Source: an uncultured Gemmatimonadales bacterium (GTDB lineage: Bacteria > Gemmatimonadota > Gemmatimonadetes > Longimicrobiales > RSA9). Taken from it: DNA of 64,000 nt. The stretch is taken from assembly GCA_963798085.1 (NCBI GenBank), contig CAWCRS010000008.1, positions 480,001-544,000 on the forward strand. Reading direction: 5' to 3'. The position numbers and the translations under genes are program-made. The notes beneath the pieces are model-generated. The model worked only from the letters and a program-made list of their open reading frames with translations. It had not been told where the DNA came from and did not search any database. Below are positions 14,918-55,827 of this stretch, piece by piece (position 1 is the first letter of the stretch; each line of letters begins with the position of its first letter).

Positions 14918-16546
14918 ATGGCGCAGACGCTGCGTTTGCTCAGGGTCCTTTACATCGGGCGCCTCACCATCGCGGTCGGCATCTTCGTGGCCGCGTTGTG
15001 GGCGTGGACGGACGCGCCTGCGGACGTCACGCTGATAGCCACGCTTGCGCTGCTGCTGTCTCTCGCCGTTTCCGGCATTGGTTTCTGGTACACCGATGTG
15101 CTGGGTCGCCGGCCCGGGCGCGACTTCGTCTACTGCCAGGTTCTGTTCGACACGCTGCTCGTCACCGCCATCGTCCACATCACCACGGTCAGCAACGGCC
15201 CGAGCGATTTCTCGGCACTGTACGTCCCGGTCATTGCCACGGCCGCACTGCTGCTGCCCATGCCCGGTGGTCTGCTGGTCGGCGGGCTCGCCAGCATTCT
15301 CTACATCGCGGACATTCTGTGGCTGCAGACCTTCGGCGTGAGCGTCGCGTCGCTGATGCAGGTCGGGCTCTTCGTCGTGATCGCGGGCGTCACCGCGGTG
15401 CTGGGTCACCGCTTGCGGCGAACCGGCACGGCGCTGGGCATGGCGGAGTCCGAGCTGCGCCAGCTGCGCCTGGACACGGGGGACATCCTGGCGGCGATCG
15501 ACACGGGTCTCGTGACCGTGGCCGATGACGGTCGCCTCATGTACATGAATGCCGCCGCCCAGGCGATTCTCGAGCTGCGTCAGGACGACTGGCGGGGCCG
15601 CGCTGTGATCGACGCGCTGGACCGCGCCGCGCCGCAGCTGGGCACCACGATTGCCCGCACGGCGAGAACCGGCATGGCGGTGCGCCGTCTCGAGGTGCGC
15701 GTGCCGCATCCCGAAGGCGATGCCTTCCTCGCGGTACGCACCACGCTGCTGGACCGGCCCCAGCATCCATGGGTGACGGCGGTTATCCAGGACGTGACCG
15801 AACACCGGCAGATCGATGATCTGATCCGGCGTGCCGAGCGGCTGCAGGCCATTGCCGAGCTGGGCGCGTCGCTGGCGCACGAGATCAAGAATCCGCTGGC
15901 CTCCATTCGCAGCAGCATCGAGCAGCTGATGCGCAACCGTCTGGGTCAAGACGATCGCGACACACTGCAGCGCCTCGTGCTCGCGGAATCGGATCGCCTG
16001 AGCCGGCTGCTGGCAGAGTTCATGGAGTTCTCGCGTCTCGAGCTGCGTCGCTGGAAGGTGCTCGACCTGCGCGACATCGCATCGGAAGCGGTGGGCCTCG
16101 CGGCCCAGCATCCGGATACCGGCGCGGGTACGCGCATCGAGCTGGACGCGCCGCTGGATCCGCTCGTCGTCGATGGCGATCAGGACCTGCTGCACCGCGC
16201 TGTGTTCAACCTGGTGCTCAATGGTGTCCAGCACGCCGGTCCCAGCGGTCGCGTGCGCGTTCAGCTGGGCCGCGCCGATACCTTCGAAGTGCCGGCCAGC
16301 GTGCCCATCGAATCACCGGTGCGACTCACGGTCGAGGACTCGGGTCCCGGAATCCGCGAGGAAGACATCGGCCGGCTCTTCGATCCTTTCTTCACCACGC
16401 GCAACGGCGGCAACGGCCTCGGCCTCGCCATGGTGCATCGCGCCATTGAAGCGCATCGCGGCGCCATACTCGTCGACGGCAACGTCGGCCGCGGCGCCCG
16501 CTTCACAGTCTATCTTCCTGCTCACAGCAACGGTCGGAGGAACTGA
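14918..16546 (+). CDS. pilS: PilS-like sensor histidine kinase (multi-TM, PAS, HisKA, HATPase)
   Basis: About 6 N-terminal TMs with QVLFDTLLVTAIVHIT...SDFSALY, H-box LAHEIKNPL, and N/G/F boxes. It lies upstream of pilR in a pilus locus. Start is uncertain (14882 possible). Confidence 0.8.
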   Translation: MAQTLRLLRVLYIGRLTIAVGIFVAALWAWTDAPADVTLIATLALLLSLAVSGIGFWYTDVLGRRPGRDFVYCQVLFDTLLVTAIVHITTVSNGPSDFSALYVPVIATAALLLPMPGGLLVGGLASILYIADILWLQTFGVSVASLMQVGLFVVIAGVTAVLGHRLRRTGTALGMAESELRQLRLDTGDILAAIDTGLVTVADDGRLMYMNAAAQAILELRQDDWRGRAVIDALDRAAPQLGTTIARTARTGMAVRRLEVRVPHPEGDAFLAVRTTLLDRPQHPWVTAVIQDVTEHRQIDDLIRRAERLQAIAELGASLAHEIKNPLASIRSSIEQLMRNRLGQDDRDTLQRLVLAESDRLSRLLAEFMEFSRLELRRWKVLDLRDIASEAVGLAAQHPDTGAGTRIELDAPLDPLVVDGDQDLLHRAVFNLVLNGVQHAGPSGRVRVQLGRADTFEVPASVPIESPVRLTVEDSGPGIREEDIGRLFDPFFTTRNGGNGLGLAMVHRAIEAHRGAILVDGNVGRGARFTVYLPAHSNGRRN

Positions 16547-16549
16547 GGA

Positions 16550-17929
<1,380 letters not shown>

Positions 17930-17976
17930 CCGACGATTTCGAGAACCACTCGCGCATCAGGAGGGACCCTACCTCA

Positions 17977-18774
17977 ATGCGGCTTAGCGTCGTCATGCCC
18001 GTCTACAACGAAGCGCCCACCGTGCAATACTCGATTGCGCGCGTGCGCTCCGTTCCCCTTTCCATCGAACTGGTGTGCATCGACGATGCCTCCACCGATG
18101 GCACACGCGCGGTCCTCGAGCAGCTGCACCAGGACGGTGTGATCGACGTGCTGCTGCTGCAGGAACAGAATCAGGGGAAGGGTGCGGCCGTGCGGCGAGG
18201 CATCCAGGCGGCCACCGGCGATGTGATCGTGATCCAGGACGCTGACCTCGAATACGATCCTTTCGAGCTGCCTCGCCTGCTCGATCCCATTCTCGATGGC
18301 CGCGCGGATGCCGTCCTGGGCAGTCGCTTCCTGGGTGGCGTGCACCGCGTCCTCTACTTCTGGCACCGTCTGGGCAACGGACTGCTGACGCTGCTGTCCA
18401 ACATGCTCACGGACCTGAACGTCACGGACATGGAGACGTGCTACAAGATGGTGCGCGCGGATCTCATGAAGAGTCTGCCGCTGACGGCGGATCGCTTCGG
18501 CATCGAGCCGGAGCTGACCGCACGGCTGGCGCAGTCCCGCGCCCGCATCTACGAAGTGCCCATCAGCTATTCGGGCCGCACCTATGCCGAGGGCAAGAAG
18601 ATCGGCTGGCGTGACGGCGTCGCCGCCTTCTGGCACATCGTGCGCTTCAATCTTTCGGGACCGCGCGCGCCCCTGTACAAGCCGGTACGCAGCCTGACGC
18701 CGCCGCAGCCCGGCGTGATCGCGGACCAGCCACCCGTGGTGCGCAATGCCACGCGAGGCGTGACCGGCCCGTGA
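17977..18774 (+). CDS. GT2 glycosyltransferase, DPM1-like polyprenyl-phosphate sugar synthase
   Basis: [50 protein letters not shown] and [22 protein letters not shown]. Alternative start 17926 overlaps the pilR stop. Confidence 0.9.
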
Positions 18775-20883
18775 ACGCCAGGCTGGGGGGCATGGAAGCC
18801 CCTGCCGCCTCGAGCCGACGCACAGGCATGATGCCATGGCGGGGGTTGCGTGCGGCGCTGGGCGCAGTGCTGGCGCTGCTCGCGGTGCTCCCTCTCCATT
18901 CTCTGCTGCAGCGGCCCGAAACCGGACTGGCCGGCGCCGCGACCGCAGCCATGACACAGGCGTACACCTCGTTCGTCTGGGCCGGCTTCCTGTTCCTGCT
19001 GATTCCCGCATTCCTGGCTTGCAGGCTGTTAGAGCCGGCCGCGATGGAGCGCGCAGCCGGGCGCGCGGGCCGGTTGCTGACCGCATTGCCGGCTGGTGCG
19101 TTCGCGACACTGGCCGCGCTCATCGCCTTCGCCGCCGCGGCCGGCTTCGGCGCCCTTGTGCTGCACGGGCAGCCCAACCTGATCGATGCCATGGCGCAGC
19201 TGCTGCAGGCCCGGTACCTGGCGGCCGGGCACTGGTCCGGTCCGGGGCCGGCGCTGGGCGCGTTCTGGCAGACGCAGCAGAGCCTGTTCACACCGCACGG
19301 CTGGGTGTCGCAGTACCCGCCCGGGCACATCGTGCTGCTCACGCTGGGGCTGCGGCTGCACGCGGTGTGGGCGGTGGGCCCGTTCATGCTGGCGCTGACC
19401 GTGCTGTTCGCAACGCTCGCGGCCGGACGCCTGCTGCCGGAGCGCCCCGCGGTGGCTCGCCTGGGCGGATTGCTGGTGGCGGTCTCGCCGTTCCTGATCG
19501 CGCACGCCGGTGCCTACATGAACCACACCACGGCGGCGGCCTTCGGCGCGTTCGCAGTATGGAGCGCATTGCGCGCGGCGCGCGGCAAATGGCTGTGGGC
19601 CGTGGCGGCCGGCGCCGGTGTGGGCGCGCAGTTCGCTACCCGGCCGCTCTCGGGCGTGACGCTGGGCATCACCCTGGCCGTGTGGCTGGGGCTGTCCCAT
19701 CATGATGCAGGCGACGACACTGCGTCCGCCTCCTCTTCTAACTCCGTGTCAGTACTCGCCGGGCTGGCGCTGGGCGCACTGCCGCTGCTGCTGGCCGTGG
19801 CGTTCTACAACCTGCACTTCTTCGGCTCGCCCACGCGCTTCGGCTACGACGCGGCGCTGGGGCCGGCCGGCGGGCTGGGCTTCGGCACAGACCCGTGGGG
19901 CAACACGTACGGGCCGGCCCAGGCGCTGGCCTACACATCAGCCGAGCTGAGCACGCTCGGGCTCTTCCTGCTCGAGACGCCCCTGCCGCTCGTGGCCGTG
20001 ATCGGCCTGTTCCTGATGTTCGCGCCGCGGCTCTCGCGCAATGAGCGCCTGCTCGTTGCGTGGGCGACACTGCCGGTGGCGGCGCAGCTGCTCTACTGGC
20101 ATCACGGCCTCTTCATGGGACCGCGCATGCTGAACGAAGTGGCGCCCGCGTGGTGTCTGCTGGCGGCGCTGGCGGGTGTGACGCTCGTCGAACGGCTGCC
20201 CGAGCGCATGGCGGCGGCCACGCAGTACTCGCCGCGCGTGCTGGGCGCGAGTCTGCTGGGCGGCGCCCTGGTCGCCGGCGTGGCCGCGCTCTCGCCGTTG
20301 CGACTGGTCAGCTACGCGCAGCACCCGGCCGCGCTCGACGCGGTCAGAGGGGCATTGTCGCCGGCACTGGTGTTCGTGCATGGCGGCTGGACCTCCCGCC
20401 TGTCCATGCGCCTCGCGGCCGCGGGCATGCGCCTCGATTCCGTGGAGAGCGCACTGCGCCAGAACCCGACGTGCGCGGTGCAGCAGTACGCCGACGCGCG
20501 CGAGCAGGGCGGCGCGCTGCCTGCCCTCGATTTCGTGCCGCGCGCGTTCCCCCTGCCGCAGTCGGTCGAGATTTCACCCGGCAACCGCATACGCATTGGC
20601 AAGGGCGAATCGCTGAGCGGCGAGTGTGCGCGCGAAGCGACCGCCGACCGCCAGGGTACCATTCGACGTGTCGCCGCTGCTCTGGCGCGGCGACCTGGCC
20701 GGGCTGGACGGGAATAACATCATGTTTGTGCGCGATCTCGGGCCCGCGGCCAACGCCCGCATGCTGGCCGCTGTGCCGCAGCGCCGGCCGTGGCTGCTGG
20801 TGCCGGCCTCGCCCGACGCCCCGCCTGCGCTGCTGCCCTACGCGCAGAGCATGAGCACGCTCTGGGGCCCGGCGGGGGAATAG
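18771..20883 (+). CDS. Multi-TM GT-C-like (ArnT/PMT-related) glycosyltransferase, +1 frameshift near 20662
   Basis: Many TM segments; loop motifs [14 protein letters not shown] and SQYPPGH; GPRM motif. The ORF 18771-20717 continues as [11 protein letters not shown] in the +1 frame to 20883. Confidence 0.7.
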
Positions 20884-20884
20884 C

Positions 20885-22576
20885 ATGGCGACCATGGAAC
20901 CGCTCATCGAGCCGGCAGCACACTCGCCTCCTGCAGCGCGCAGTCGGGCGCCCAGCATGCGTCAGGCCCTGGCGGGTGCGCTCGCGCTGGCGCTGATCTG
21001 CACTGGTGTGACCGCCATGGCCAGCCGGCGCAATTCGACGACGTTCGATGAGATCGTGCTGATGGCGGGCGGTGCGCGTGGCTGGGTGACCGGCGAATGG
21101 AACATCGCGCCCGAGCATCCGCCACTCATGCAGTACCTGTACGGGCTGCCCATTCACCTGACGCACCCGCAGCTGCCGGACGTCAAGGCCACACCCGACA
21201 GCAGCACCGTGCGCGACTTCAGCTTCCGCTATGTGTACTCGCGCGCCTTCTTCTGGGCCAGCGGCAACGATCCCGAGAAGCTGGCGTTCCTGGGTCGCAT
21301 GATGGGTGCGATCATGGCCGGTCTGCTGGTGCTGGCCGTTTTCGGTCTGGCGCAGCGCTTCGGTCCGCTGACAGCGCTGTCAGCAGCGGCGCTCACCGCG
21401 TTCCTGCCTGACGTGCTGGCACACGGCGGTGTGGCGTATAACGACCTGCCGCTGGCGCTGGGCTATGTGCTGGGCGTCTGGGCGCTGGATGCGGCCGTGC
21501 GCCGGCCCTCGCCGTTGCGCGGCGCCGTGGCCGGGCTCGCCCTGGCATTCGCGCTCGCGGTCAAGTTCAGCGCCGTGCTGCTGGCGCCGGTCGCGCTGCT
21601 GCTCATCGTGCTGGGCGCTGTCGCGCAGCCGCGAGCGGAGCACTGGTGGCGCGACCTGTCGCTGGCGGCGCTCGCGGCGCTGGCTGCCATGTACCTGGCG
21701 CTGGTGCTCGTCTATCGCGGCGATTTCACGCTGGCCGAGATGATGTACGGGCTGCGCTACACCTTCGGGCACGTCGAGCGCGGCCACGGCGCGCCGTCCT
21801 ACCTGCTGGGCAATCTCAGCGTGCGCGGCTGGTGGTACTTCTTCCCCGTGGCCTTCCTGCTGAAGACGCCCGCCGCGCTGCAGCTGCTGCTGCTCATGGC
21901 GCTGCTGGGCTTCGCGCGCACATGGCAGAAGACGAGCTGGCGCGCGCTCGCGGGCGCCGGGCTGCGTGCCCCGCTGATGGGCCTCGGCGTGTTCGCGTTC
22001 GTGCTGCTCACCTCGAATCTGGACATCGGATTCCGCTACGCGCTGCCGGCACTGCCGCTGCTCGCCATTGTCGTGGCGGCGGGCGTAACACGACTGTTTG
22101 CGGCCTCGGCGGCCAGCCCGCCGCTGCGCTACGGGCTGGCCGGACTGCTGCTCTGGTACGCCGGCTCGACGCTCTCGTACTATCCGGATTTCCTGGCGTA
22201 CACCAGCGAGTACGGACACAGTCGCCAGCGCGGCGATCTGCTGCTGCTGGACTCGAGCCTGGACTGGGGTCAGGGCCTGCTGGAACTGCGTGATTTCATG
22301 CGCGCGCGCCACATTGAGCGCGTGTACCTGAGCTATTTCGGCTCGGCCATGCCCGATGGCTACGGCATCCGCTACGTGGCGCTGCCCAGCTTCTACCCGC
22401 TGCCGCGCGGGCCGCGGCCGGTCGAGCTGCCGGAGTACGCCGTGATTTCGGCGACGAATCTGCACAGCGTGTATCTGCCCGGCGACCCGCTGAAGATGTT
22501 CCGCACACGCGAGCCGGATGCCGTGATCGCGCACAGCATGTTAGTGTACAGGGTCGGCAATGCGCCCGGAAACTGA
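20885..22576 (+). CDS. ArnT/PMT_2-family GT-C glycosyltransferase
   Basis: STTFDE acidic motif after TM1, EHPPL, LAHG...NDL, AVKFS, WWYFFPVAFLLKTP, IGFRYALP and DSSLDWGQ. Confidence 0.85.
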   Translation: MATMEPLIEPAAHSPPAARSRAPSMRQALAGALALALICTGVTAMASRRNSTTFDEIVLMAGGARGWVTGEWNIAPEHPPLMQYLYGLPIHLTHPQLPDVKATPDSSTVRDFSFRYVYSRAFFWASGNDPEKLAFLGRMMGAIMAGLLVLAVFGLAQRFGPLTALSAAALTAFLPDVLAHGGVAYNDLPLALGYVLGVWALDAAVRRPSPLRGAVAGLALAFALAVKFSAVLLAPVALLLIVLGAVAQPRAEHWWRDLSLAALAALAAMYLALVLVYRGDFTLAEMMYGLRYTFGHVERGHGAPSYLLGNLSVRGWWYFFPVAFLLKTPAALQLLLLMALLGFARTWQKTSWRALAGAGLRAPLMGLGVFAFVLLTSNLDIGFRYALPALPLLAIVVAAGVTRLFAASAASPPLRYGLAGLLLWYAGSTLSYYPDFLAYTSEYGHSRQRGDLLLLDSSLDWGQGLLELRDFMRARHIERVYLSYFGSAMPDGYGIRYVALPSFYPLPRGPRPVELPEYAVISATNLHSVYLPGDPLKMFRTREPDAVIAHSMLVYRVGNAPGN

Positions 22577-23294
22577 CTCGCCACCGCGTGCGCCGGAAGC
22601 CGCAGCACCGGGCTCGCCGGGCGATGATTTCGTCGCCTGGAACGAGACCATGGTGGAGCGCTACGACATCGAGCGCTACTATCAGACGGCGCATCCCATC
22701 GTGCGCTGGCTCGAGCAGCGGCGGCTGGCGGCGCTGCGCGCGCTGGCGGCGGCGCAGCCGGGCGAGCGCCTGCTGGAAGTGGGCTGCGGCGCGGGTCACG
22801 TGCTGGAGCAGTTCGCGGGCACGCGGCGCACCGGCATCGATCTCTCCGCGGGCATGATGCAGCGGGCGCGCCGTCGCCTGCAGCACGATGTCAGCCTGGC
22901 GCGCGCGGCGGCGGATCGGCTGCCGTTTGCCGATGGCGCATTCGACATTGTCGTGTGTACGGAAGTGCTGGAGCACGTGCCGGACCCCGGCGTCGTGATC
23001 GGCGAGCTGGTGCGTGTGGCGGGAACCGGCGGGCGCGTCGTCGTCTCCATTCCCAACGAGCGCAACATCGACCGCATCAAACGTGCGGTTCGCGCCATTC
23101 CGGTGGTACGCACGCTGCTGCGTACACTGGCTGCCGAAGGCAACGAATGGCACCTGCACCGCTTCGACCTGGCGCTGCTGCGGCGCATCGTGCTGGGCCG
23201 GGCCACAGTAGAGCGGGTGCGCGCCATTCCCGGGCGAGGACTGCCCCTGCGTTACGCGGCGCTGCTGCGCAGCGCACCGCAAAGGAGGAGTTAG
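22560..23294 (+). CDS. Class I SAM-dependent methyltransferase
   Basis: LLEVGCGAG, GIDLS and LPFADGAFDIVVCTEVLEHVPDP. Confidence 0.9.
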   Translation: MRPETDSPPRAPEAAAPGSPGDDFVAWNETMVERYDIERYYQTAHPIVRWLEQRRLAALRALAAAQPGERLLEVGCGAGHVLEQFAGTRRTGIDLSAGMMQRARRRLQHDVSLARAAADRLPFADGAFDIVVCTEVLEHVPDPGVVIGELVRVAGTGGRVVVSIPNERNIDRIKRAVRAIPVVRTLLRTLAAEGNEWHLHRFDLALLRRIVLGRATVERVRAIPGRGLPLRYAALLRSAPQRRS

Positions 23295-23295
23295 C

Positions 23296-24285
23296 ATGAC
23301 ACCTCCCACTACACTGCGCGTGCAGCCGGGCACGGAAGGCTCGGCCACGCGCCCCCGCATCTCCGTGGTGGTGCCCGTCTACAACGAGGCACTCAACGTG
23401 GCTGAGCTGTACCAGCGGCTCGACGCCGTGCTCACCGAGCCGGCCGAATTCATTTTCGTGGATGATGGCAGCACGGATGAAACGTACGAGCGCCTGGTCG
23501 AGCTGGCCGCCGGCGACGCCCGTCTGCGCATCATTCGTTTCCGCCGCAATTTCGGACAGACGGCCGCGCTCTCCGCCGGCATCGACCACGCGCGTGGCGA
23601 GATCATCGTGCCCATGGATGGCGACCTGCAGAACGATCCGCGCGACATTCCTCGCCTGATCGAGAAGCTGGATGAGGGCTACGACGTGGTCAGCGGCTGG
23701 CGCGTGAAACGGCAGGACGCGTTCCGCCGGCGCCTGCCTTCGCAGATCGCCAACCGCATGATCTCCTGGATCTCGGGGGTTCGCCTGCACGACTACGGCT
23801 GCTCGCTCAAGGCGTACCGCCACAGCGTGCTGGAAGATGTGCGGCTCTATGGCGAGATGCACCGCTTCGTGCCCATCTACGCCAGCTGGCAGGGTGCGCG
23901 GGTCACCGAGATGGCGGTGGATCATCACCCGCGCACGCGGGGCAAGTCCAACTACGGCATCGAGCGCACCGTGAAAGTCGTGCTCGATCTCATTGTCGTG
24001 AAATTCCTGTCGTCGTATGCGACGAAGCCGATCTACGTCTTCGGTGGTTTTGGCGTGCTTTCCTTCCTGCTCTCGCTCATGGCCTTCGCGCTCATGGTCT
24101 ACTTCAAGTACTGGGGCGGGAAGACCTTCATCCAGACGCCGCTGCCCCTGGTGGTCGTGATGTTCTTCCTGGTGGGCTGCCTGAGCGTGCTGCTGGGCCT
24201 GGTCGCGGAGCTGTCCGTGCGCACGTACTACGAATCGCAGGGCAAGCGCACGTACGCCATCCGCTCCATCGAGGGCGGCTCATGA
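23296..24285 (+). CDS. GT2 ArnC/GtrB-like undecaprenyl-phosphate glycosyltransferase with two C-terminal TMs
   Basis: SVVVPVYNE, VDDGSTD, RNFGQTAA, MDGDLQNDP, HDYGCSLKAYR, LYGEMHRFVP and two hydrophobic C-terminal helices. Confidence 0.9.
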   Translation: MTPPTTLRVQPGTEGSATRPRISVVVPVYNEALNVAELYQRLDAVLTEPAEFIFVDDGSTDETYERLVELAAGDARLRIIRFRRNFGQTAALSAGIDHARGEIIVPMDGDLQNDPRDIPRLIEKLDEGYDVVSGWRVKRQDAFRRRLPSQIANRMISWISGVRLHDYGCSLKAYRHSVLEDVRLYGEMHRFVPIYASWQGARVTEMAVDHHPRTRGKSNYGIERTVKVVLDLIVVKFLSSYATKPIYVFGGFGVLSFLLSLMAFALMVYFKYWGGKTFIQTPLPLVVVMFFLVGCLSVLLGLVAELSVRTYYESQGKRTYAIRSIEGGS

Positions 24286-25295
24286 GGGAGCGTCTCGTTC
24301 CCTACCTGATGTGCCCCGCATGCGAGGGCGATCTCGATCTGCGCGCCCGCCGTCGCGACGGCGAGCATGTCATGGAAGGCTCGCTGGCCTGCGCTGCGTG
24401 CGGCCAGGAATGGCCCGTGCGCGGCGGTATTCCCCGGCTTGCTGCCGCCGTGGCCGCACTGGAAGAGCGCACGGCCGACGCCTTCGGCTACGAATGGCTG
24501 CGCTACAACGAGCTGGCACAGCGGTATCGCCAGCAGTTCCTGGACTGGATCCGACCGGTGGACGCCTCGTTCTTTGCGGGCCGCACCGTGCTCGAGGGCG
24601 GCTGCGGCAAGGGCCGTCATACGGCGTTAGCGGCGGAGTTCGGCGCGCGCGATGTCGTGGCCATCGACCTGGGCGTGGCGGTGGAGAGCGCATTCGCCAA
24701 CACACGTCATCTGCCCAATGCACACATCGTGCAGGCCGATCTCAAACGTCCACCCGTGAAGCGCGTATTCGACTACGCGTTTTCGATCGGCGTGCTGCAC
24801 CATCTGCCCGAGCCGGAGGCGGGATTCCGCGCGCTGGTGTCGCGGCTGCGGCCGGGCGGCTCCATCTCGGCGTGGGTATACGGCCGTGAAGGCAACGGCT
24901 GGATCGTGCACATGGTCTCGCCCATCCGCGAGCGCGTCACCTCGCACATGCCGCACGCACCGCTCGACGTGCTGTCCGCGCTGCTCACCGTGCCGCTGTT
25001 TCTGGCGACGAAGCTCGTCTACGGTCCGTTCCGCGGGAAGCTGCTCGGGATGAAGCTGCCGTACGGCGAGTATCTCGCGTACATCGCGGCGTTTCCCTGG
25101 CGCGAGCAGCGCTCCATCGTGTTCGATCACCTGGTCGCGCCCGTCGCGTACTACATACGGCGCGAGGAGTTCGCGCAGTGGTTCGCGCGTGCCGGCCTGG
25201 AGAACCCGCGCATCGAGCATCACAACAGCAACAGCTGGCGCGGCTTCGCGCAGGTGCCGGCCGCGCGCCAGGCGCCCGTCAGCGCCGCGACGTAG
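24282..25295 (+). CDS. Trm112-like zinc domain fused to class I SAM methyltransferase
   Basis: N-terminal LMCPACEGDL...LACAACGQEWPVRGGIPRL, then AFGYEW, VLEGGCGKGRH and SIGVLHHLP. Confidence 0.85.
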   Translation: MRERLVPYLMCPACEGDLDLRARRRDGEHVMEGSLACAACGQEWPVRGGIPRLAAAVAALEERTADAFGYEWLRYNELAQRYRQQFLDWIRPVDASFFAGRTVLEGGCGKGRHTALAAEFGARDVVAIDLGVAVESAFANTRHLPNAHIVQADLKRPPVKRVFDYAFSIGVLHHLPEPEAGFRALVSRLRPGGSISAWVYGREGNGWIVHMVSPIRERVTSHMPHAPLDVLSALLTVPLFLATKLVYGPFRGKLLGMKLPYGEYLAYIAAFPWREQRSIVFDHLVAPVAYYIRREEFAQWFARAGLENPRIEHHNSNSWRGFAQVPAARQAPVSAAT

Positions 25296-25303
25296 CCAGC
25301 CCC

Positions 25304-27232
25304 ATGTGCGGCATTGCAGGCTACGCGGCGCTCGACCCTCGCCGGCCACTGGATCCCGGGCCGGTGCGCGCCATGCTGCGCTGTCTCGCGCACCGCGGCC
25401 CCGACGATGAAGGCGTGCACTGCGCGCCGGGCATCGTACTGGGACATCGTCGGCTGTCCGTCATCGACCTGAGCGGCGGCCACCAGCCGCTCTTCGGCGT
25501 CACCGAGCAGACCGCGATCATCGCCAACGGCGAGATCTACAACTACCGCGAGCTGCGGCTCGATCTGGAGCGGCGAGGCCACCGTTTCCGCACCGCATCG
25601 GACACGGAAGTCGCGGCGCACGCCTACGACGCGTGGGGCCTCGACTTCCTCGAGCGGCTGGACGGCATGTTCGCGCTGGCCCTCTGGGATGGCGCGCGCC
25701 GCCGGCTGGTGCTGGCGCGCGATCGTCTGGGCGAGAAGCCGCTCTTCTGGACCCTGACAGACGGTTTGCTGCTGTTCGGTTCCGAGCTGACCGCGCTCAC
25801 GGCGCACCCGGCCGTGTCGCAGGAAATCGCGCCGGCGTCGCTCTCCGCGTACCTGGCGCTCGAGTACGTACCGGCGCCCGACACCATCCTGAAGGGCGTG
25901 TGCAAGCTGGAGCCGGGCGCCATGCTGGTGCTGGAGAACGGGCGCGCGCAGCAGAAAGCGTACTGGCGCCTGGACCCGCGTGTGCGACAGCCCGTGCCGC
26001 CGTACGCCGAGGCCGTGCGCACGCTGCGCCGGCATCTGGAGCACGCGGTGGAGTCGCGGCTGGTCAGCGATGTGCCGCTGGGCATCTTCCTCTCGGGTGG
26101 CATCGATTCCAGCACGGTGGCGGCGCTGGCGGCAAGGGCGGGCGCACTGGAGACGTTCTCGATCGGCTTCGAGGAAGCCAGCTTCGACGAGAGTCGCTGG
26201 GCAAGGGAAGTGGCGCAGCGCATCGGCAGCCGGCACCACGAGCGCGTGGTGCGCGGCAGCGAGATGGCGGAGCTGGTGCCCGGCCTGGGGCGCATGCTGG
26301 ACGAGCCGCTGGGCGACGCTTCCATTCTGCCTACCTCGGTGTTAGCGCGCTTCGCACGCGAGCACGTGACCGTGGCCCTGGGCGGCGATGCCGGCGATGA
26401 GCTGTTCGCGGGCTATCCCATGCACCAGGCGCAGCGCGTGGCCCGCTGGGCGAGGCTGCTGCCGTCGCCGCTGCACCGCGCCGCGGACGCAGTGGCCGCT
26501 CGCCTGCCCGTCTCGCATGGCAACTTCTCGACCGTTTTCCGGCTGCGCTCGTTCCTGCGTGGCTCGGCGGCGAGCCCGCCGTTCAATCACGCGCTCTGGA
26601 TGTCCTCGTTCTCCCCCGCGGAGCAGGACGCGCTGCTCGAGCCGGAGGTGCGCGCCGCAGCGGATCCGGAGGGCGCGGCACTGCTCGCCTTCCGGCGCGC
26701 GTGGCAGGCCTCGGCCGGCGCGCCCCTGCTCGCGCGTGCGGGACATCTCGATGCCATGACCTATCTGGCGAACGACATCCTGATGAAGGTCGACCGCGCC
26801 AGCATGGCGGTGGCGCTCGAGGTGCGCGCGCCGTTCCTGGCGACGGATGTCGTGGAATTCGCATTCTCGCTGCCCGATGCGTATCGCATGCGCGGGCTCA
26901 CGGGCAAACGCATCCTGCGTGATGCGGTGCGCGATCTGCTGCCGGAAAGCGTGCTGGCGCGGCCCAAGAAAGGCTTCGGCATGCCGGTCGCCGCCTGGCT
27001 CAACGGCCCGTTGCGCTCGCTCGCCGGCGATATGCTGGCGCCGGCAAGGCTGCGCAGCGCCGGCTGGTTCCGTGCCGACGTCGTCAGTGGCATGCTGCGC
27101 GATCACGCGGCGGGCCGGGCCGATCTGCGCAAGCCGCTCTGGACGCTGCTCATCTTCGAGCTGTGGCGCGAGCAGCACCTGGGCGCCCGCTCCGCCTCGC
27201 CGGAAGCGCTGCCGCTTTCCGTTTCCGCATGA
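25304..27232 (+). CDS. asnB: Asparagine synthase (glutamine-hydrolysing)-family amidotransferase, probably glycan-modifying
   Basis: N-terminal MCGIAG, HRGPD, NGEIYNYRELR, FLSGGIDSS, GDELFAGY, KVDRASM and RPKKGF. Confidence 0.92.
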   Translation: MCGIAGYAALDPRRPLDPGPVRAMLRCLAHRGPDDEGVHCAPGIVLGHRRLSVIDLSGGHQPLFGVTEQTAIIANGEIYNYRELRLDLERRGHRFRTASDTEVAAHAYDAWGLDFLERLDGMFALALWDGARRRLVLARDRLGEKPLFWTLTDGLLLFGSELTALTAHPAVSQEIAPASLSAYLALEYVPAPDTILKGVCKLEPGAMLVLENGRAQQKAYWRLDPRVRQPVPPYAEAVRTLRRHLEHAVESRLVSDVPLGIFLSGGIDSSTVAALAARAGALETFSIGFEEASFDESRWAREVAQRIGSRHHERVVRGSEMAELVPGLGRMLDEPLGDASILPTSVLARFAREHVTVALGGDAGDELFAGYPMHQAQRVARWARLLPSPLHRAADAVAARLPVSHGNFSTVFRLRSFLRGSAASPPFNHALWMSSFSPAEQDALLEPEVRAAADPEGAALLAFRRAWQASAGAPLLARAGHLDAMTYLANDILMKVDRASMAVALEVRAPFLATDVVEFAFSLPDAYRMRGLTGKRILRDAVRDLLPESVLARPKKGFGMPVAAWLNGPLRSLAGDMLAPARLRSAGWFRADVVSGMLRDHAAGRADLRKPLWTLLIFELWREQHLGARSASPEALPLSVSA

Positions 27233-28872
27233 AACCGCAGCCCGAGGTGCGCACGTCCGTCGGTGCCCTGGCTGTCGTCATGATGGCCATCGTGCTGTAC
27301 GCCATCGCGCTGCGTAACGGCTTCGCCTACGACGACGTGCCCATCATTCTGGGCAATGCGCGGATTCAGTCCTTCAGCCAGTGGCCTGCCATCTTCACGG
27401 GCGGCTACTGGAGAGACGCCGACCTGGCGCTCTGGCGTCCGCTGACGACGCTGAGCTTCGCGCTGGACTGGTCCATCGCCGGGAATTCGGCGGCCTGGTT
27501 TCACTTCACGAATGTGTTGCTGCACGCGGGCGCCAGCCTGTTCGCGTTCCTGCTGCTGACGCGGTTCTTCTCGCCGGCGGCCGCGCTCGCGGGCGGACTG
27601 CTCTTCGCCGCGCACCCTGTGCACGTGGAAGCCGTGGCCAATGTCGTGGGTCGCGCCGAGCTGCTCTCGGGCGCATTCTTCCTGGCCTGCTGCCTGGCAT
27701 GGACGGCGCCGTCGGGCGAGCCTGGGCCGCGCTCGCGCGCGCAGGTGCTGCTCATAACAGCGCTGTTCGCGCTGGCGCTGCTCTCCAAGGAGGGCGCCAT
27801 CACGCTGCCCGCGGCGCTGCTGCTGATCGACGCGGCGCGGGGCGAGCTGCGGCTGCGCAGCGCCGGTGCATGGCTGCGGCGCAATGCGCTGGCGCTGGGC
27901 GCCATCGCCGTTGCCACGGTGCTGTACCTGGTGGCCCGGTATGCCGTGCTCGGCGCATTCACGCCGACCCGCGTGGATCCGTTGCTCGAAGTGGCGGCAT
28001 CACCGGGCACGCGCGTGCTCACCGCGCTGCAGACCTGGCCCGTGTACCTGCGTCTTCTGTTCTTCCCCATGACACTGCTCGCGGATTACGGACCGCGTAT
28101 TCTCGAGCCGGCCAGCCGTCTCACGACAGGCGGCGCGGTGGGGCTGGTGCTGCTCGCAGGCTGTGTGCTGGGCGGCGTGGCCGCACTCGCGCGCGGCGCC
28201 GGACGGACGGGTCTGGGACTGCTCTGGTTCCCGCTGACCATACTGCCCGTTTCCAATCTGCTCGTGCCCATTGGCGTGCTGGTCGCGGAGCGCACGTTGT
28301 ACGTGCCTTGCCTGGCAGCGGCCATTGCCGTTGCGGGGGCGGTGGAAGTGCTGTCGCTGGTGTCGCCCGCAGCGCGACCCGCCGTGCGTGCCGCGCTGAC
28401 GGCGGTGTTAGCGGCCTGCGCGCTGCGCGTGGTGACGCGCGTGCCGGAGTGGAAGTCGACGAACAGCATCCTGGTGGCGCTGGTGCGCGACCGACCGGAC
28501 GCGTTCCGCGGGCACTGGCACCTGGCACGAATGGCGAGGGACGCCGACGACGTGGCCGGGGCCGTGGCGCAGTACGACACGGCGGTCGCGCTCTGGCCGC
28601 ACCGCGAACGGCTGGTCATGGAAGCCGCCACGTACGCGGTGGACAAGGGCCGGCCTCGCCGGGCGTTGGTGCTGGCGGCGCTGGCCGCACGGCAGTGGCC
28701 CGCGGACGTCAACGCGCAGCGCCTGCTGGCCGCCGTCGCGCTGGATGCGGCGGACACGGCCACGGCATTGCATGCGCTGCACGATGGCCTCGCCGCGTCA
28801 CCGCAGGACGCGACGCTGCTGCAAATGCGGGCGGCGCTCGACTCCGCCCAACACAGGATTACGCACCAGTGA
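27229..28872 (+). CDS. TMTC/DUF1736-like GT-C glycosyltransferase with C-terminal TPR-like helices (copy 1)
   Basis: FAYDD, WRPLT, FHFTNVLLH, FAAHPVHVEAVANVVGRAELL, SKEGA, AERTLYVP and RVPEWKS. ATG overlaps the asnB TGA. Confidence 0.85.
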   Translation: MKPQPEVRTSVGALAVVMMAIVLYAIALRNGFAYDDVPIILGNARIQSFSQWPAIFTGGYWRDADLALWRPLTTLSFALDWSIAGNSAAWFHFTNVLLHAGASLFAFLLLTRFFSPAAALAGGLLFAAHPVHVEAVANVVGRAELLSGAFFLACCLAWTAPSGEPGPRSRAQVLLITALFALALLSKEGAITLPAALLLIDAARGELRLRSAGAWLRRNALALGAIAVATVLYLVARYAVLGAFTPTRVDPLLEVAASPGTRVLTALQTWPVYLRLLFFPMTLLADYGPRILEPASRLTTGGAVGLVLLAGCVLGGVAALARGAGRTGLGLLWFPLTILPVSNLLVPIGVLVAERTLYVPCLAAAIAVAGAVEVLSLVSPAARPAVRAALTAVLAACALRVVTRVPEWKSTNSILVALVRDRPDAFRGHWHLARMARDADDVAGAVAQYDTAVALWPHRERLVMEAATYAVDKGRPRRALVLAALAARQWPADVNAQRLLAAVALDAADTATALHALHDGLAASPQDATLLQMRAALDSAQHRITHQ

Positions 28873-30848
28873 GCGCGCGCGCTGGCCGCCGGCTGCAGGA
28901 GCTGATGGTGGCGCTCGTGGCGTTTGCCACGTACGCCAATTCGCTGGCCAATCAGTTCGCGCTGGACGACAACTCGATCATTGCGACCAACGGGCGCGTG
29001 CACCAGCTGGCGCACCAGTCGCTCATCTGGCTGACACCGTACTGGCCCGGATACGGCCAGCACCTGGGTCTCTACCGGCCCCTCACCATCTTCGGCTACG
29101 CGCTGCAGTGGGCCGCGGGCGGCGGCGGCGGTCTGGCCTTTCACGCGGTGAGCATTGTACTGCACATCGTCGTCTGCATCCTGGTGCTGGCGCTGCTGCG
29201 ACGCATGGCAACACCCGGCGCGGCGCTGCTGGGCGCACTGCTGTTCGCCGTGCACCCGCTGCACACCGAAGTCGTGGCCAATGTGGTGGGTCAGGCGGAG
29301 CTGATCGCCGCGGCCGCGGTCCTGGGCGCCTGCCTGCTCCACATCGACCGCACGGACAATGTCCGCGGCAGCGGCCGCACGGCGGCCATCGTGCTGCTCT
29401 TCGTGCTCGGTCTGCTGGCCAAGGAGGGCGCAGTCGTGCTGCCGGGACTGCTGGTGGCGCTGGATTTCGGCATGTCGCGCGTCCGTCCCGTGCGCGCCAG
29501 CCTGCAGCGCTACGCCGGCGGGCAGTTCTGGCTCTTCTTCGCGCTGCTCGCTGCGCTCGCGGCCTACCTGCTCCTGCGCATCGCCGTGCTGGGTTCCATC
29601 GGCGGCGTCAATGCGGCGCCTAACCTGCCGTTTCTGCGGCATGGACACCGTTTCCTCTCCGCCCTGCGCGCGTGGCCCGAGTACGCGCGGCTGCTGGTAT
29701 TTCCGATCGACCTGGTGTCGGACTACTCGCCCGGTGTAGTGCTGCCGGTCGAGCACCTGTCGCCCATGGTGCTGCTGGGCGCACTCTTGCTCGCGGGCAC
29801 TCTGGCGCTGTTTCTGGCGACGCCCTGGGTACGCCGCGCCGGCCTGCCCGCCGCCTGGTTCTTCATCTCCGTGTTCCCGGTTTCCAACCTGCTGCTGCCC
29901 ATCGGCGTACTGCTCGCCGAACGCATTCTCTATCTCCCCAGCGTAGCGCTCTCCATGGCGCTGGCCTTTGCGTGGGATCATTACCGTGCGCGTTTCACAG
30001 CGCGCGATCTGCGTCTGGCGGTGGGCGCCTTGTCGGCGGCGCTGCTGGCATTGGGGGTGCGCTCCGTGCTGCGCAACCCGGACTGGAAGGACACGGATGC
30101 AGTGTGGGACGCCATCGTGCGGGACCACCCCGAGTCGTATCGCTCGCAGTGGGTGAACGGATATCGCATGGCGCAGCGCGGCAACAGACAGCTGGCGCGC
30201 GGCTACTTCGAGATCGCCTACCGACTCTGGCCCGATGATGAAGTGCTGCTCGACAACCTCGCCGGCGTCTACGTCGAGCTGCGCGAGTACGAGCGCGCCG
30301 TTCCCGTGCTGGAGCACGCGCGCGCCATCAGCGACATCATTGATAACACCGAGCTATTGCTGGCCTGCGCGTACCTGGGCACGCAGCGCTGGGCCGACGC
30401 GCTGGACGCCAGCATCCGCGCCGATCGCCTGAACGGCGATCGCGCCACCGTCTTCGCGCTCCGCGCGCAGGCCTACGAAGGGGAAGTGCGCTACGACTGG
30501 GCCGCCGGCGCATGGCGAGTCGCGGCCCGCCAGCGCCACGGCAACATCCCCACGTTCTGGCTGATGCTGGCGCGTGACCTCGCACGCACCCAGCACCCGA
30601 CCGCGGCCCTCGCCGCCATCGACACGGCGCGCAGTCTGATTCCGGCCACCGGCCGCCAGCTGCAGGCGACCGCGGACTCGCTGGCCGGCGCGGTCGCCGC
30701 GCACTGCTTCTCCACTACTGCCCCAACCATCCATTCCGGCGCCCCGCCGGCTGCCGCACCATGTGCCGACCCGCTCGCTGCCTGGCCGATCGTCGTGCCG
30801 TGGACTGCGCAGGAAGTTGCCAACCCCTTGCAAAATGCCACTAAGTAA
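28869..30848 (+). CDS. TMTC/DUF1736-like GT-C glycosyltransferase with C-terminal TPRs (copy 2)
   Basis: FALDD, YRPLT, FHAVSIVLH, FAVHPLHTEVVANVVGQAEL, AKEGA, AERILYLPS, RNPDWKD and TPR-like NLAGVY...YERAVPVLEHA. GTG overlaps the upstream TGA. Confidence 0.85.
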   Translation: MSARAGRRLQELMVALVAFATYANSLANQFALDDNSIIATNGRVHQLAHQSLIWLTPYWPGYGQHLGLYRPLTIFGYALQWAAGGGGGLAFHAVSIVLHIVVCILVLALLRRMATPGAALLGALLFAVHPLHTEVVANVVGQAELIAAAAVLGACLLHIDRTDNVRGSGRTAAIVLLFVLGLLAKEGAVVLPGLLVALDFGMSRVRPVRASLQRYAGGQFWLFFALLAALAAYLLLRIAVLGSIGGVNAAPNLPFLRHGHRFLSALRAWPEYARLLVFPIDLVSDYSPGVVLPVEHLSPMVLLGALLLAGTLALFLATPWVRRAGLPAAWFFISVFPVSNLLLPIGVLLAERILYLPSVALSMALAFAWDHYRARFTARDLRLAVGALSAALLALGVRSVLRNPDWKDTDAVWDAIVRDHPESYRSQWVNGYRMAQRGNRQLARGYFEIAYRLWPDDEVLLDNLAGVYVELREYERAVPVLEHARAISDIIDNTELLLACAYLGTQRWADALDASIRADRLNGDRATVFALRAQAYEGEVRYDWAAGAWRVAARQRHGNIPTFWLMLARDLARTQHPTAALAAIDTARSLIPATGRQLQATADSLAGAVAAHCFSTTAPTIHSGAPPAAAPCADPLAAWPIVVPWTAQEVANPLQNATK

Positions 30849-30940
30849 CGGGCTGTTGGGGCTGGCGGTGCCGTTGCTGAGATTCACGTAAAATCAGGGT
30901 GTTCAAGTAGTTACGGTAGTCCGACCAGGGCGGGACCGGG

Positions 30941-30957
30941 TGGGAATACCTCTTGCT
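30941..30957 (+). promoter_or_regulatory. Candidate sigma54 (-24/-12) promoter of the pilin genes
   Basis: TGGGAATACCTCTTGCT has GG(30943-44)-N10-GC(30955-56) with TTGCT. It is 69 bp upstream of the pilin ATG, and an IHF-like site (TCAAGTAGTTA) lies just upstream. Confidence 0.55.
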
Positions 30958-31025
30958 CCATCCGCCTCTCGGGAAAAGCTGCCTGCCGATCCCGATCCGT
31001 AAAACTCTTTCTGGAGGACGTCGGT

Positions 31026-31430
31026 ATGAAGCTGCGCAAAGGTTTCACCCTGATCGAGCTGCTGATTGTGATCGTGATCATCGGCATTCTGGCTGCGATC
31101 GCGATTCCGAAGTTCAGCAAGACTCGTGAGAAGGCCTATTTCAAGGCCATGATGTCCGACCTGCGCAATCTCGAGGCGCAGCAGGAGATCTACTACTCGA
31201 TCCCTGCCAACAACTACCAGTACGCCGCGAACGTGACGGACCTGGTGGACTTCGCACCTTCGAGCGGCGTAAGCACCAACATCGCCGCGTCGGGCACCAC
31301 CGGCTGGTCGGCGACGGCGACGCATGCCGCGCTTGCGGCCGCGACGCAGAACTGCGCGATCTACACGGGTTCGGCGGCGGCAGTCGGTCCGGCAACGACG
31401 CCGGGAATCGTGACCTGCACGGGTGAGTAA
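31026..31430 (+). CDS. pilA: Type IVa major pilin
   Basis: Leader MKLRKG|FTLIELLIVIVIIGILAAIAIPKF, SDLRNL, C-terminal Cys pair and GGAGG RBS. Confidence 0.92.
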   Translation: MKLRKGFTLIELLIVIVIIGILAAIAIPKFSKTREKAYFKAMMSDLRNLEAQQEIYYSIPANNYQYAANVTDLVDFAPSSGVSTNIAASGTTGWSATATHAALAAATQNCAIYTGSAAAVGPATTPGIVTCTGE

Positions 31431-31450
31431 TTTCGCCGGTGCTTGATCGT

Positions 31451-31473
31451 GGGGCGGCCCACTGGGCCGCCCC
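31451..31473 (+). other. Strong GC hairpin between the two pilin genes
   Basis: GGGGCGGCCC-ACT-GGGCCGCCCC, a perfect 10-bp stem with no U-tract. Confidence 0.7.
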
Positions 31474-31498
31474 CGGGTCAAACTAGGCGAATGCTGAG

Positions 31499-31894
31499 GT
31501 GATGATGCCAAGGCGAAGCGGGTTTACTCTGATCGAGATTCTGATCGTGCTCGTGATCATTGCGATCCTGGCAACGATCGGTGTCAACCGATTCTGGGCA
31601 GCGAAGGACCGCAGCCTGTACGCGAGTATTCAGAGCGATCTGAGAAACATGGGCGCAGAACAGGAGATCTATTACGAGAAGAACCTGAGCTACGCCGCGG
31701 CAGTAACGGATCTGGTGGATTTCAGGAGCAGCCAGGGCGTGACGATCAACATCACATACGCGGCAGCCAATGGCTGGGCAGCGAATGCGACACACACGTC
31801 ACTGGGCGGCAAGCAGTGTGGCTATTACACAGGGAACGCGCCAGCGGCGTCGGGCGCACCGGCGACCGTGAACGGCGTGGTCGACTGCAACTGA
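31499..31894 (+). CDS. Second type IV pilin, paralogue of pilA
   Basis: RRSG|FTLIEILIVLVIIAIL. Shares SDLRN, QEIYY, YAA.VTDLVDF, GW.A.ATH and the C...C pair with pilin 1. Confidence 0.9.
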   Translation: MMMPRRSGFTLIEILIVLVIIAILATIGVNRFWAAKDRSLYASIQSDLRNMGAEQEIYYEKNLSYAAAVTDLVDFRSSQGVTINITYAAANGWAANATHTSLGGKQCGYYTGNAPAASGAPATVNGVVDCN

Positions 31895-43663: not shown

Positions 43664-43723
43664 GCCATGCGCGAGGCAACCCAGAACCGGACCCCGGGTC
43701 ACGCGTACCCGGAACAACCAGCG

Positions 43724-55819: not shown

Positions 55820-55827
55820 ACACGAAC

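What the first reader, a model, noticed from the sequence alone, without database searches (positions are those of the whole stretch)
17977..31894. Pilus-embedded lipid-phosphate-sugar / GT-C glycosylation cassette: a candidate sequential pilin glycosylation system
Seen: nine overlapping or closely spaced genes sit between pilR and the pilin genes. They are two GT2 synthases (DPM1-like and ArnC/GtrB-like), four GT-C-type membrane proteins (two ArnT/PMT-like, two TMTC-like), two SAM methyltransferases and an AsnB amidotransferase. No initiating phosphoglycosyl transferase, Wzx flippase, GT4 enzyme or PglL/TfpO-type oligosaccharyltransferase is recognisable. Pilin 1 has 17 Ser/Thr in its last 58 residues, and neither pilin ends in the C-terminal Ser that TfpO requires. 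Known: GT-C enzymes use polyprenyl-phosphate-monosaccharide donors made by DPM1/GtrB-like GT2s, and P. aeruginosa TfpW is a precedent for a GT-C glycosylating pilin. Inference: sugars are added one at a time on the periplasmic side, primed by the TMTC-like enzymes, extended by the ArnT/PMT-like enzymes and tailored by methylation and amidation.
Basis: partly seen in the sequence, partly recalled or inferred. Interest (0 to 1): 0.85.

Follow-up and report, generated by a model that had tools for sequence, protein, structure and literature searches.

The report
Two-module pilin sugar-coating gene cassette
Nine sugar-handling genes sit between the pilus regulator and the main pilus-subunit gene of this Gemmatimonadota bacterium: a core kept beside the pilin across the phylum likely attaches a sugar to it, much as Pseudomonas TfpW does, and a lineage-specific add-on likely makes a second, chemically tailored sugar whose target is untested.

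Summary
The nine genes are real and tightly packed between pilR and pilA; one GT-C gene carries a frameshift, probably an assembly error. They are two modules, not one. Core: a DPM-synthase-like GT2 plus GT-C/TPR proteins with the TMTC catalytic motifs and the TfpW architecture. In 64 of 89 Gemmatimonadota loci such a gene lies within 700 bp of a pilin. Add-on: an ArnC-like GT2, AsnB, methyltransferases and a GT39-like GT-C. It is confined to about one clade here, and similar blocks occur without pilins, once inside a polysaccharide cluster. Most likely the core O-glycosylates pilin Ser/Thr from a lipid-phosphate sugar (about 0.7). Whether the add-on also serves the pilin glycan is open (about 0.45). 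Two first-reader arguments fail. Pilin Ser/Thr richness is the same where the enzyme is missing (14.4 vs 13.7, p=0.49). AsnB and the methyltransferases lack export signals, so they would tailor the donor before flipping, not the finished glycan. Sugars, flippase and order of transfer are unknown. This scan noted the core before in at least seven other Gemmatimonadota genomes; I found no paper on it. Verdict: new variant of TfpW-type pilin glycosylation; moderate interest.

The parts
14708..17929 (+). pilS and pilR two-component pair; pilR stop overlaps the GT2a start, so the cassette likely shares their transcript
   Evidence: 6TM_PilS, HisKA, sigma-54 activator; gaps
17926..18774 (+). GT2a, DPM-synthase-like GT2 without TM helix; core gene; predicted polyprenyl-phosphate sugar synthase
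   Evidence: PF00535; best PDB hit DPM synthase 5mlz E 5.6e-19; no TM segment; 57-83% identical orthologues at pil loci
18771..20883 (+). GTC1, probable GT-C membrane protein, frameshifted near 20663 (tail in 20626-20883)
   Evidence: No Pfam hit itself; PMT_2 in 2 of 23 family members; profile match to GTC2 89%, E 2.2e-6; intact in G001; fused to a TMTC1-clade gene in G036
20885..22576 (+). GTC2, GT39/PMT_2-like GT-C with invariant TFDE and DSSxDWGQ motifs; acceptor unknown
   Evidence: PMT_2 above cut-off; motifs; model pLDDT 93; AglB Z 26.6, ArnT 25.0, ALG12 24.4, Pmt4 23.6
22560..23294 (+). MT1, class I SAM methyltransferase, add-on gene, missing from some add-on loci
   Evidence: PF08241 E 1.3e-22; presence table
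23296..24285 (+). GT2b, ArnC/GtrB-like GT2 with two C-terminal TM helices; predicted second lipid-sugar synthase
   Evidence: ArnC E 2.5e-50, GtrB 1.1e-37; TM segments; same 13 of 61 genomes as AsnB
24282..25295 (+). MT2, Trm112-like N-terminal domain plus class I methyltransferase with one hydrophobic segment
   Evidence: NF038101 (below cut-off) and PF08241; 2 of 121 phylum genomes
25304..27232 (+). AsnB-family glutamine amidotransferase, N-terminal MCGI, no signal peptide
   Evidence: TIGR01536 above cut-off
27229..28872 (+). TMTC1: TMTC/TfpW-like GT-C plus TPR, 547 aa; member of a paralogue clade never found directly next to pilA
   Evidence: Motifs; model pLDDT 94; AglB Z 21.1, STT3B 19.4, Pmt2 19.2, ArnT 18.0, plus TPR hits; tree
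28869..30848 (+). TMTC2: TMTC/TfpW-like GT-C plus TPR, 659 aa, directly upstream of pilA; core gene
   Evidence: 36% identical to TMTC1, E 3e-61; motifs; tree; adjacency tally
30863..30958 (+). Two sigma-54-like -24/-12 sites (30863 and 30942) upstream of pilin 1
   Evidence: the pattern lies upstream of 32 of 75 major pilins against 1.3% background
31026..31430 (+). Pilin 1, major type IVa pilin, predicted glycan acceptor
   Evidence: N_methyl, PilA_Myxo below cut-off; invariant Cys pair in 62 orthologues
31502..31894 (+). Pilin 2, paralogue about 46-49% identical to pilin 1

Best explanation
The cassette is likely a TfpW-type pilin O-glycosylation system: a phylum-wide core (GT2a plus the pilA-adjacent GT-C/TPR enzyme) would load a sugar on polyprenyl phosphate and transfer it to Ser/Thr of membrane-held pilin, and a clade-specific add-on would supply a second, amidated and methylated sugar. 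Steps: (1) GT2a charges polyprenyl phosphate with an unknown sugar on the cytoplasmic side (family shown, activity inferred). (2) An unidentified flippase encoded elsewhere moves it across (inferred; no GtrA found). (3) TMTC2 transfers it to pilin in the periplasm (motifs and linkage shown, fold shown for its paralogue, substrate inferred; about 0.7). (4) TMTC1 and GTC1 add sugar at further sites or extend the first one (retained paralogue and one fusion shown, role inferred). (5) AsnB and MT2/MT1 amidate and methylate a carboxyl-bearing sugar in the cytoplasm, GT2b lipid-links it, and GTC2 transfers it as a cap or branch (co-occurrence shown; chemistry inferred; target on the pilin glycan about 0.45). 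Likely purpose: masking the pilus from phages, by analogy with Pseudomonas.
For: Linkage: of 89 loci with a TMTC-like gene, 64 have a pilin within 700 bp downstream, 10 within 4 kb, 2 at 4.4 kb, 8 end too soon, 5 show none. The smallest form is GT2a-TMTC-pilA (G005, G055, G059). The two window genes are the only TMTC-like hits in this genome. TMTC motifs from PMC7801869 Table 4: DD, RP, KE, D286 and ERxxY are invariant in 118 of 118 homologues. GT-C plus TPR fold: AglB Z 21.1, rmsd 4.3, 331 aligned. TfpW is an 11-TM GT-C with DDX and a C-terminal TPR domain, sits next to pilA, and modifies pilin Ser/Thr. Both window proteins fit its proline motif with M or I in place of F; 107 of 152 locus proteins fit this relaxed form. 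GTC1 is fused to a TMTC1-clade protein at the G036 pil locus. GT2b and AsnB orthologues occur in the same 13 of 61 genomes, 12 of them at the pil locus, and again together in G064 and L264.
Against: No biochemical or expression data. Pilin Ser/Thr content does not differ with or without a TMTC-like gene: 14.4 (n=62) vs 13.7 (n=11), p=0.49. GT2a stays beside pilA in G013, G027, G041 and G049 without a TMTC-like gene, so it may serve other transferases. GTC2 orthologues lie only at non-pilin loci in 5 of 22 genomes, once beside a 1923-aa Ig/cadherin-like protein. In G064 a GT-C, GT2b, AsnB, MT2 block sits among Wzx, Wzm/Wzt and pyruvyl-transferase genes with no pilin on the 14.5-kb contig. The add-on genomes form about one clade with one loss (support 0.91), so 13 of 13 is not independent support. 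The loci were picked as best hits and are kin. The exact TfpW motif occurs in 0 of 118 and 2 of 152 sequences. The fusion is one record and could be a read-through error. The pilA gene has its own sigma-54 sites, so proximity need not mean one transcript.
Confidence: 0.55

Rival explanations
1. Two unrelated jobs share an operon: the core glycosylates pilin, while the add-on is a portable three-component modification block (lipid-sugar synthase plus GT-C) that decorates LPS, a surface polysaccharide or other surface proteins and merely inserted between pilR and pilA.
For: The block occurs in a polysaccharide cluster in G064 and without a pilin in L264. GTC2 orthologues occur in other GT-rich clusters. 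GT2b is closest to ArnC/GtrB, which serve lipid A and O-antigen (PMC11127046 passages). The pilR-pilA interval holds unrelated sugar genes in G008, G012, G025 and G032.
Against: In this clade the block stays at the pil locus in 12 of 13 genomes, overlapping the TMTC1 start. GTC2 lies at the pil locus in 16 of 22 genomes. The genome has a separate large polysaccharide cluster with its own GT-Cs.
Confidence: 0.3
2. All four GT-Cs are initiating protein O-glycosyltransferases that place single sugars in parallel on different sites or different pilus proteins (pilin 1, pilin 2, minor pilins); there is no chain extension.
For: GTC2 has TFDE and HPP motifs that recall PMT (motif recalled, not tested); Atlas neighbours carry PMT_2 in 73-94% and PMT in 40-64% of members. 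TMTC-like genes are often duplicated two- to fourfold at the locus.
Against: The GTC2 model also aligns over 409-424 residues, C-terminal domain included, with the chain-extending ALG12 and ALG9. TfpW alone builds oligomers.
Confidence: 0.2
3. The TMTC-like enzymes act on something other than pilin (other secreted proteins or an envelope glycan), and their place beside pilA is inherited synteny.
For: The family is very large (26,949 clusters at E<=1e-30) and occurs in several phyla. Five of 89 loci show no pilin. The sample is one phylum. Ser/Thr content gives no support for pilin as acceptor.
Against: Adjacency persists while the rest of the interval is rearranged, gained and lost. TfpW has the same architecture and is a tested pilin glycosyltransferase.
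Confidence: 0.12

Closest known systems
TfpW pilin D-arabinofuranosyltransferase of Pseudomonas aeruginosa group IV strains (bioRxiv 10.1101/2020.04.19.049825; parts 1-3 of 4 read)
   Same: GT-C with about 11 TM helices, DD motif in the first periplasmic loop, C-terminal TPR domain, similar length, encoded next to pilA, lipid-phosphate monosaccharide donor; a related proline motif before the TPR domain.
   Different: Here upstream of pilA, in one to four copies, with two more GT-Cs. The donor would come from GT2 synthases, not the DprE1/DprE2 route (no ALO-family or GtrA hit). Amidotransferase and methyltransferases are added. No direct sequence comparison with TfpW was made.
Eukaryotic TMTC1-4 O-mannosyltransferases (PMC7801869; passages and part of section 6 read)
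   Same: GT-C plus TPR architecture; motifs M1 DD, YRP of M2, M3 RxD/E, M4 KE, M5 D-aromatic, M7 ERxxY in order.
   Different: SHKS of M2 is lacking and M6 spacing differs; DUF1736 stays below cut-off (16.6 vs 27 bits; 10 of 75 homologues at E<=0.01); fewer TPRs; sugar unknown. The paper already notes uncharacterised full-length prokaryotic homologues.
Three-component extracytoplasmic glycosylation systems (GtrB/GtrA/Gtr*, ArnC/ArnEF/ArnT; PMC11127046 passages read)
   Same: GT2 lipid-sugar synthase (GT2b vs ArnC E 2.5e-50) encoded with a GT-C transferase.
   Different: No flippase in the cassette and no GtrA hit in the genome; no ArnA/B/D among the nine genes; acceptor possibly a protein-linked glycan.
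Bacterial GT2 plus PMT-like protein O-glycosylation (actinobacterial Ppm1/Pmt with PimE extension; Streptococcus mutans Pgf) - recalled, not read here
   Same: Polyprenyl-phosphate monosaccharide donors and GT-C enzymes acting outside the membrane; GT2b scores 152 bits on the PgfS model.
   Different: Far below the PgfS cut-off of 500; those systems are general and not tied to a pilus locus.

Membership tests
TfpW-type pilin glycosyltransferase | GT-C membrane domain with DDX in the first periplasmic loop | tested here: met
   D35-D36 invariant in 118 of 118; GT-C fold
TfpW-type pilin glycosyltransferase | C-terminal TPR domain | tested here: met
   TPR hits
TfpW-type pilin glycosyltransferase | Encoded next to the major pilin gene | tested here: met
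   64 of 89 loci within 700 bp; upstream here, downstream for tfpW
TfpW-type pilin glycosyltransferase | Proline motif YX6PFX7P | tested here: inconclusive
   Exact: 0 of 118, 2 of 152; with any residue for F: 47 of 118, 107 of 152, both window proteins included
TfpW-type pilin glycosyltransferase | D-Araf donor pathway (DprE1/DprE2, GtrA-like 6247) | tested here: not met
   No PF04030 or PF04138 hit in G000, 90% complete; controls rang in 3 and 8 of 14 genomes. Three UbiA-family genes were not characterised
TfpW-type pilin glycosyltransferase | Sequence homology to TfpW itself | not tested
   No TfpW sequence was returned by any search
TfpW-type pilin glycosyltransferase | Transfers sugar to pilin Ser/Thr | not testable with these tools
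   Needs MS or reconstitution
TMTC O-mannosyltransferases (GT105) | Motifs M1, M3, M4, M5, M7 | tested here: met
   DD, RxE/D (R 117, D/E 118 of 118), KE, D-Y/W, ERxxY; TMTC2 clade has Q for the M3 Arg in 24 of 24
TMTC O-mannosyltransferases (GT105) | Full M2 SHKSYRP and M6 PxxP | tested here: not met
   Only (Y/W)RP of M2; prolines 335 and 340 are five apart
TMTC O-mannosyltransferases (GT105) | DUF1736 (PF08409) above cut-off | tested here: not met
   16.6 bits vs 27 at the expected place in TMTC1; 10 of 75 homologues weak, best E 1.1e-4; Atlas DUF1736 cluster at 0.93, rank 21
TMTC O-mannosyltransferases (GT105) | Mannose donor | not testable with these tools
   GT2a best matches DPM synthase at low identity; sugar not predictable
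GT39/GT83 (PMT/ArnT) GT-C, for GTC2 | PMT_2 domain, acidic DE motif in loop 1, GT-C fold | tested here: met
GT39/GT83 (PMT/ArnT) GT-C, for GTC2 | Acceptor class (protein, lipid A or glycan) | tested here: inconclusive
   AglB Z 26.6 (rmsd 3.3, 329 aligned), ArnT 25.0 (3.7, 344), ALG12 24.4 (6.3, 409), Pmt4 23.6 (3.8, 385)
GT-C superfamily, for GTC1 | GT-C fold and acidic catalytic motif | tested here: inconclusive
   One invariant Asp in loop 1; PMT_2 in 2 of 23; profile match to GTC2 89%; no model made
Three-component glycosylation system | Synthase and GT-C transferase encoded together | tested here: met
   GT2b with GTC2
Three-component glycosylation system | Dedicated flippase | tested here: inconclusive
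   None in the cassette; no GtrA in G000; two PF03706 proteins elsewhere are candidates only
TfpO/PglL en-bloc pilin glycosylation | Wzy_C O-oligosaccharyltransferase beside pilA; C-terminal Ser for TfpO | tested here: not met
   No Wzy_C hit in the cassette; three elsewhere; pilins end in E and N

The most novel reading that the evidence does not exclude
A bacterial pilin glycan built wholly on the protein in the periplasm by a relay of four GT-C enzymes from two single-sugar lipid donors, one of them pre-amidated and methylated in the cytoplasm, primed by a bacterial cousin of the animal TMTC enzymes, with swappable add-on blocks that diversify the pilus coat across Gemmatimonadota.
Probability: 0.25. 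Interest if true: 0.7.

Novelty: new variant of a known kind. Interest (0 to 1): 0.45.

Why it matters
If true, a common soil phylum coats its pili by a TfpW-like route that uses GT2-made donors, and TfpW and the animal TMTC enzymes would share a small bacterial model with a defined substrate. The add-on would show how a pilin glycan is elaborated without en-bloc transfer. In Pseudomonas, pilin glycans block phages (bioRxiv 10.1101/150227, abstract read), which would explain why this interval is so variable. The principle itself (a GT-C/TPR enzyme beside pilA with a lipid-phosphate sugar donor) is already published for TfpW.

Tried and rejected
Complex prediction of TMTC2 with pilin 1: no answer, score 0.01 against a mark of 0.32; no evidence either way. 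Sequencing runs: no RNA holder listed. Sequence searches of PDB with TMTC1 or with the GTC1 and GTC2 profiles found no GT-C; only fold searches did. No TMTC or TMEM260 structure was among the listed fold hits, which excludes nothing. No TMTC1 relative in plasmids at E<=1e-8. No NCBIfam model named TfpW or TMTC matched 75 homologues. Pilin Ser/Thr richness rejected as evidence; 6 duplicate loci and 2 frameshifted pilins were dropped, and one of the 11 controls (G002) may be misfiled because its contig is broken. N-glycosylation rejected: the one sequon of pilin 1 (N69) is not kept in G001. The DSSxDWGQ motif of GTC2 resembles the WWDYG motif of oligosaccharyltransferases (recalled); the fold output gave no residue pairing, so this is untested. 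The sigma-54 pattern had the wrong spacing and was replaced. Most MT2 relatives in metagenomes (about 52% identity) have no add-on genes in view; the membrane genes beside them that I scanned were mostly NrfD-type (6 of 11 proteins). Cluster sizes for the fusion protein could not be looked up. Other phyla were not surveyed for linkage. Literature: nine searches listed no paper on this locus or on pilin glycosylation in Gemmatimonadota; the library lacks most subscription papers, and the TfpW preprint's figures and supplements were not seen.
Full report
Setting. The window is G000:C8:480001-544000 of a 6.2-Mb, 67% GC assembly, 90% complete. Named homologues of the cassette proteins are Gemmatimonadota, many Longimicrobiales. 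The locus reads pilS, pilR, nine sugar genes, two pilins, a second two-component pair, minor pilin-like genes, pilMNOPQ, aroC.

Observation. The nine genes are present in the stated order with gaps of -17 to +8 bases. GTC1 is split near 20663: the G001 orthologue aligns in two frames. The downstream kinase has a similar break, and one near-identical soil contig of depth 2.9 lacks a base at 32876, so such breaks may be assembly errors; no listed contig tested the GTC1 break itself. GC content shows no island.

The TMTC-like pair. The two proteins are 36% identical and are the only such genes in the genome. The AlphaFold model of TMTC1 (pLDDT 94) matches GT-C enzymes over residues 1-419 (AglB Z 21.1, STT3B 19.4, ALG12 19.4, Pmt2 19.2, ArnT 18.0) and TPR proteins over the rest. 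Against Table 4 of PMC7801869, DD, RP, KE, D286 and ERxxY are invariant in 118 of 118 homologues; the SHKS part of M2 and the M6 spacing are not kept; DUF1736 is hit below cut-off. So these work like TMTC but fail strict membership. TfpW, the tested pilin glycosyltransferase, has the same architecture: 646 aa, 11 predicted TM helices, DDX, TPR, and a YX6PFX7P motif. Both window proteins fit that motif except at F. I could not compare them with the TfpW sequence.

Linkage. TMTC1 relatives were found in 36 of 61 related genomes at E<=0.001, several of them weak. After dropping 6 duplicates, 64 of 89 have a pilin within 700 bp downstream, 10 within 4 kb, 2 at 4.4 kb, 8 end too soon and 5 show none. 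The usual form is pilS-pilR-GT2a-TMTC(1-3)-pilA. These are best hits within one phylum, so they are biased and not independent. On a tree of 152 proteins, TMTC1 falls in an 18-member clade (support 1.0) that is never next to pilA, while the TMTC2 clade mostly is: the two were kept as distinct paralogues. A sigma-54 pattern precedes 32 of 75 of these pilins against 1.3% by chance, marking them as major pilins under a sigma-54 activator such as PilR.

Natural controls. Among 14 pilin loci fetched from genomes with weak, no or unlinked TMTC hits, G013, G027, G041 and G049 keep GT2a beside pilA without a TMTC-like gene, G039 keeps a 73-aa remnant, and G011, G043, G045, G053 and G057 have neither. 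Pilins at such loci are as Ser/Thr-rich as the rest (13.7, n=11, vs 14.4, n=62; p=0.49). Loss of the enzyme with GT2a retained shows the modification is dispensable and that GT2a may feed other GT-Cs; this genome has 11 PMT_2 matches.

The add-on. GT2b is ArnC/GtrB-like. Close orthologues of GT2b and of AsnB occur in the same 13 of 61 genomes; 12 are at the pil locus and G034 is on a short contig. On a tree of the neighbouring response regulator (19 genomes) they form one clade with one loss, so this is about one gain. MT2 was found in 2 of 121 phylum genomes. The second, G064, has GT-C, GT2b, AsnB and MT2 in a row among Wzx, Wzm/Wzt and pyruvyl-transferase genes with no pilin. L264 has a similar block beside an epimerase and DUF354. 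Of 80 metagenome loci, the 8 closest (69-76%) repeat the window's order as far as they reach, and one reaches the pilins. GTC2 was found in 22 of 61 genomes: 16 at the pil locus, 5 only elsewhere, 1 unclear; in G033 it precedes an Ig/cadherin-like protein. Its model (pLDDT 93) is a GT-C, but AglB, ArnT, ALG12 and Pmt score within 3 Z units, so the acceptor is unresolved. GTC1 is tied to the pil locus in another way: it lies near pilS on the opposite strand in 13 other loci and is fused to a TMTC1-clade protein in G036 (one record).

Order of chemistry. MT1, MT2 and AsnB have no N-terminal hydrophobic stretch or Tat motif by a simple scan. SAM, ATP and glutamine are cytoplasmic (established knowledge). 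PMC2615507 (passages) argues likewise that Bordetella glutamine amidotransferases most likely form uronamide on the sugar nucleotide. So tailoring would precede flipping, and GT2b would carry an already modified sugar. That the sugar is a uronamide is inference from the AsnB pairing. No flippase lies in the cassette and no GtrA was found in the genome. No ALO-family (DprE1-type) gene was found, so D-Araf is unlikely.

Prior notes and literature. The scan's index lists seven notes on the same core in other Gemmatimonadota genomes, all pointing to TfpW, and one on a cable bacterium; they led me to read the TfpW preprint and are not counted as support. Nine literature searches listed nothing on this locus (see Tried and rejected). 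PMC13712944 (passages) describes GT2/GT4/GT39, methyltransferase and TPR genes beside another glycosylated filament, OmcE, a loose parallel.

Verdict. Shown: gene content, GT-C folds of two proteins, motifs, linkage, two-module history. Inferred: substrate, sugars, flippase, order. Core pilin glycosylation about 0.7; the add-on acting on the pilin glycan about 0.45; the full stepwise relay about 0.25. New variant of a known kind; interest 0.45.

Noticed in passing
window 32056-33300: The second sensor kinase, downstream of the pilins, is frameshifted near 32880; one near-identical soil contig lacks a base at 32876, so likely an assembly error. This second sigma-54 two-component pair is conserved after the pilins in most loci.
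   Followed up: partly
L046:12672-16295 (G036); P0146: 1208-aa fusion of GTC1 and a TMTC1-clade protein at the pil locus; single record.
   Followed up: partly
L163:9913-13155 (G025); P0329, P0358: GTC2 orthologue fused behind a flavin amine-oxidase-like domain, seen in two database clusters.
   Followed up: no
L166:8371-17924 (G033): Two GTC2 orthologues directly before a 1923-aa Ig/cadherin/invasin-domain protein, within a run of membrane genes: a possible adhesin glycosylation cluster.
   Followed up: partly
L164 (G001:C190): A second copy of the add-on (GTC1, GTC2, GT2b, MT2, AsnB) on a 7.6-kb contig of the same-genus genome; duplication or bin contamination.
   Followed up: no
L174:6251-7972 (G000:C1): Solitary 573-aa Wzy_C protein outside any sugar cluster, about 10 kb from a pilin-like gene; a possible PglL-like transferase.
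   Followed up: no
G000:C7 about 358000-432000: Large polysaccharide cluster with Wzx, Wzy_C, GT4s, several PMT_2 proteins, a GTC1 paralogue and a PF03706 flippase candidate.
   Followed up: partly
window 54598-57444: One 948-aa ORF hits ornithine carbamoyltransferase, glycine-cleavage T and MoCF_biosynth domains in turn; probably genes run together by sequence errors, possibly a fusion.
   Followed up: no
window 43667-45355: 562-aa ORF after pilQ with almost no family hit, conserved in part after pilQ in relatives.
   Followed up: no
pilins of add-on genomes: Their mature pilins are near neutral (net 0 to -3; frameshifted G010 aside), while others run from -1 to -17; confounded by kinship.
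   Followed up: no
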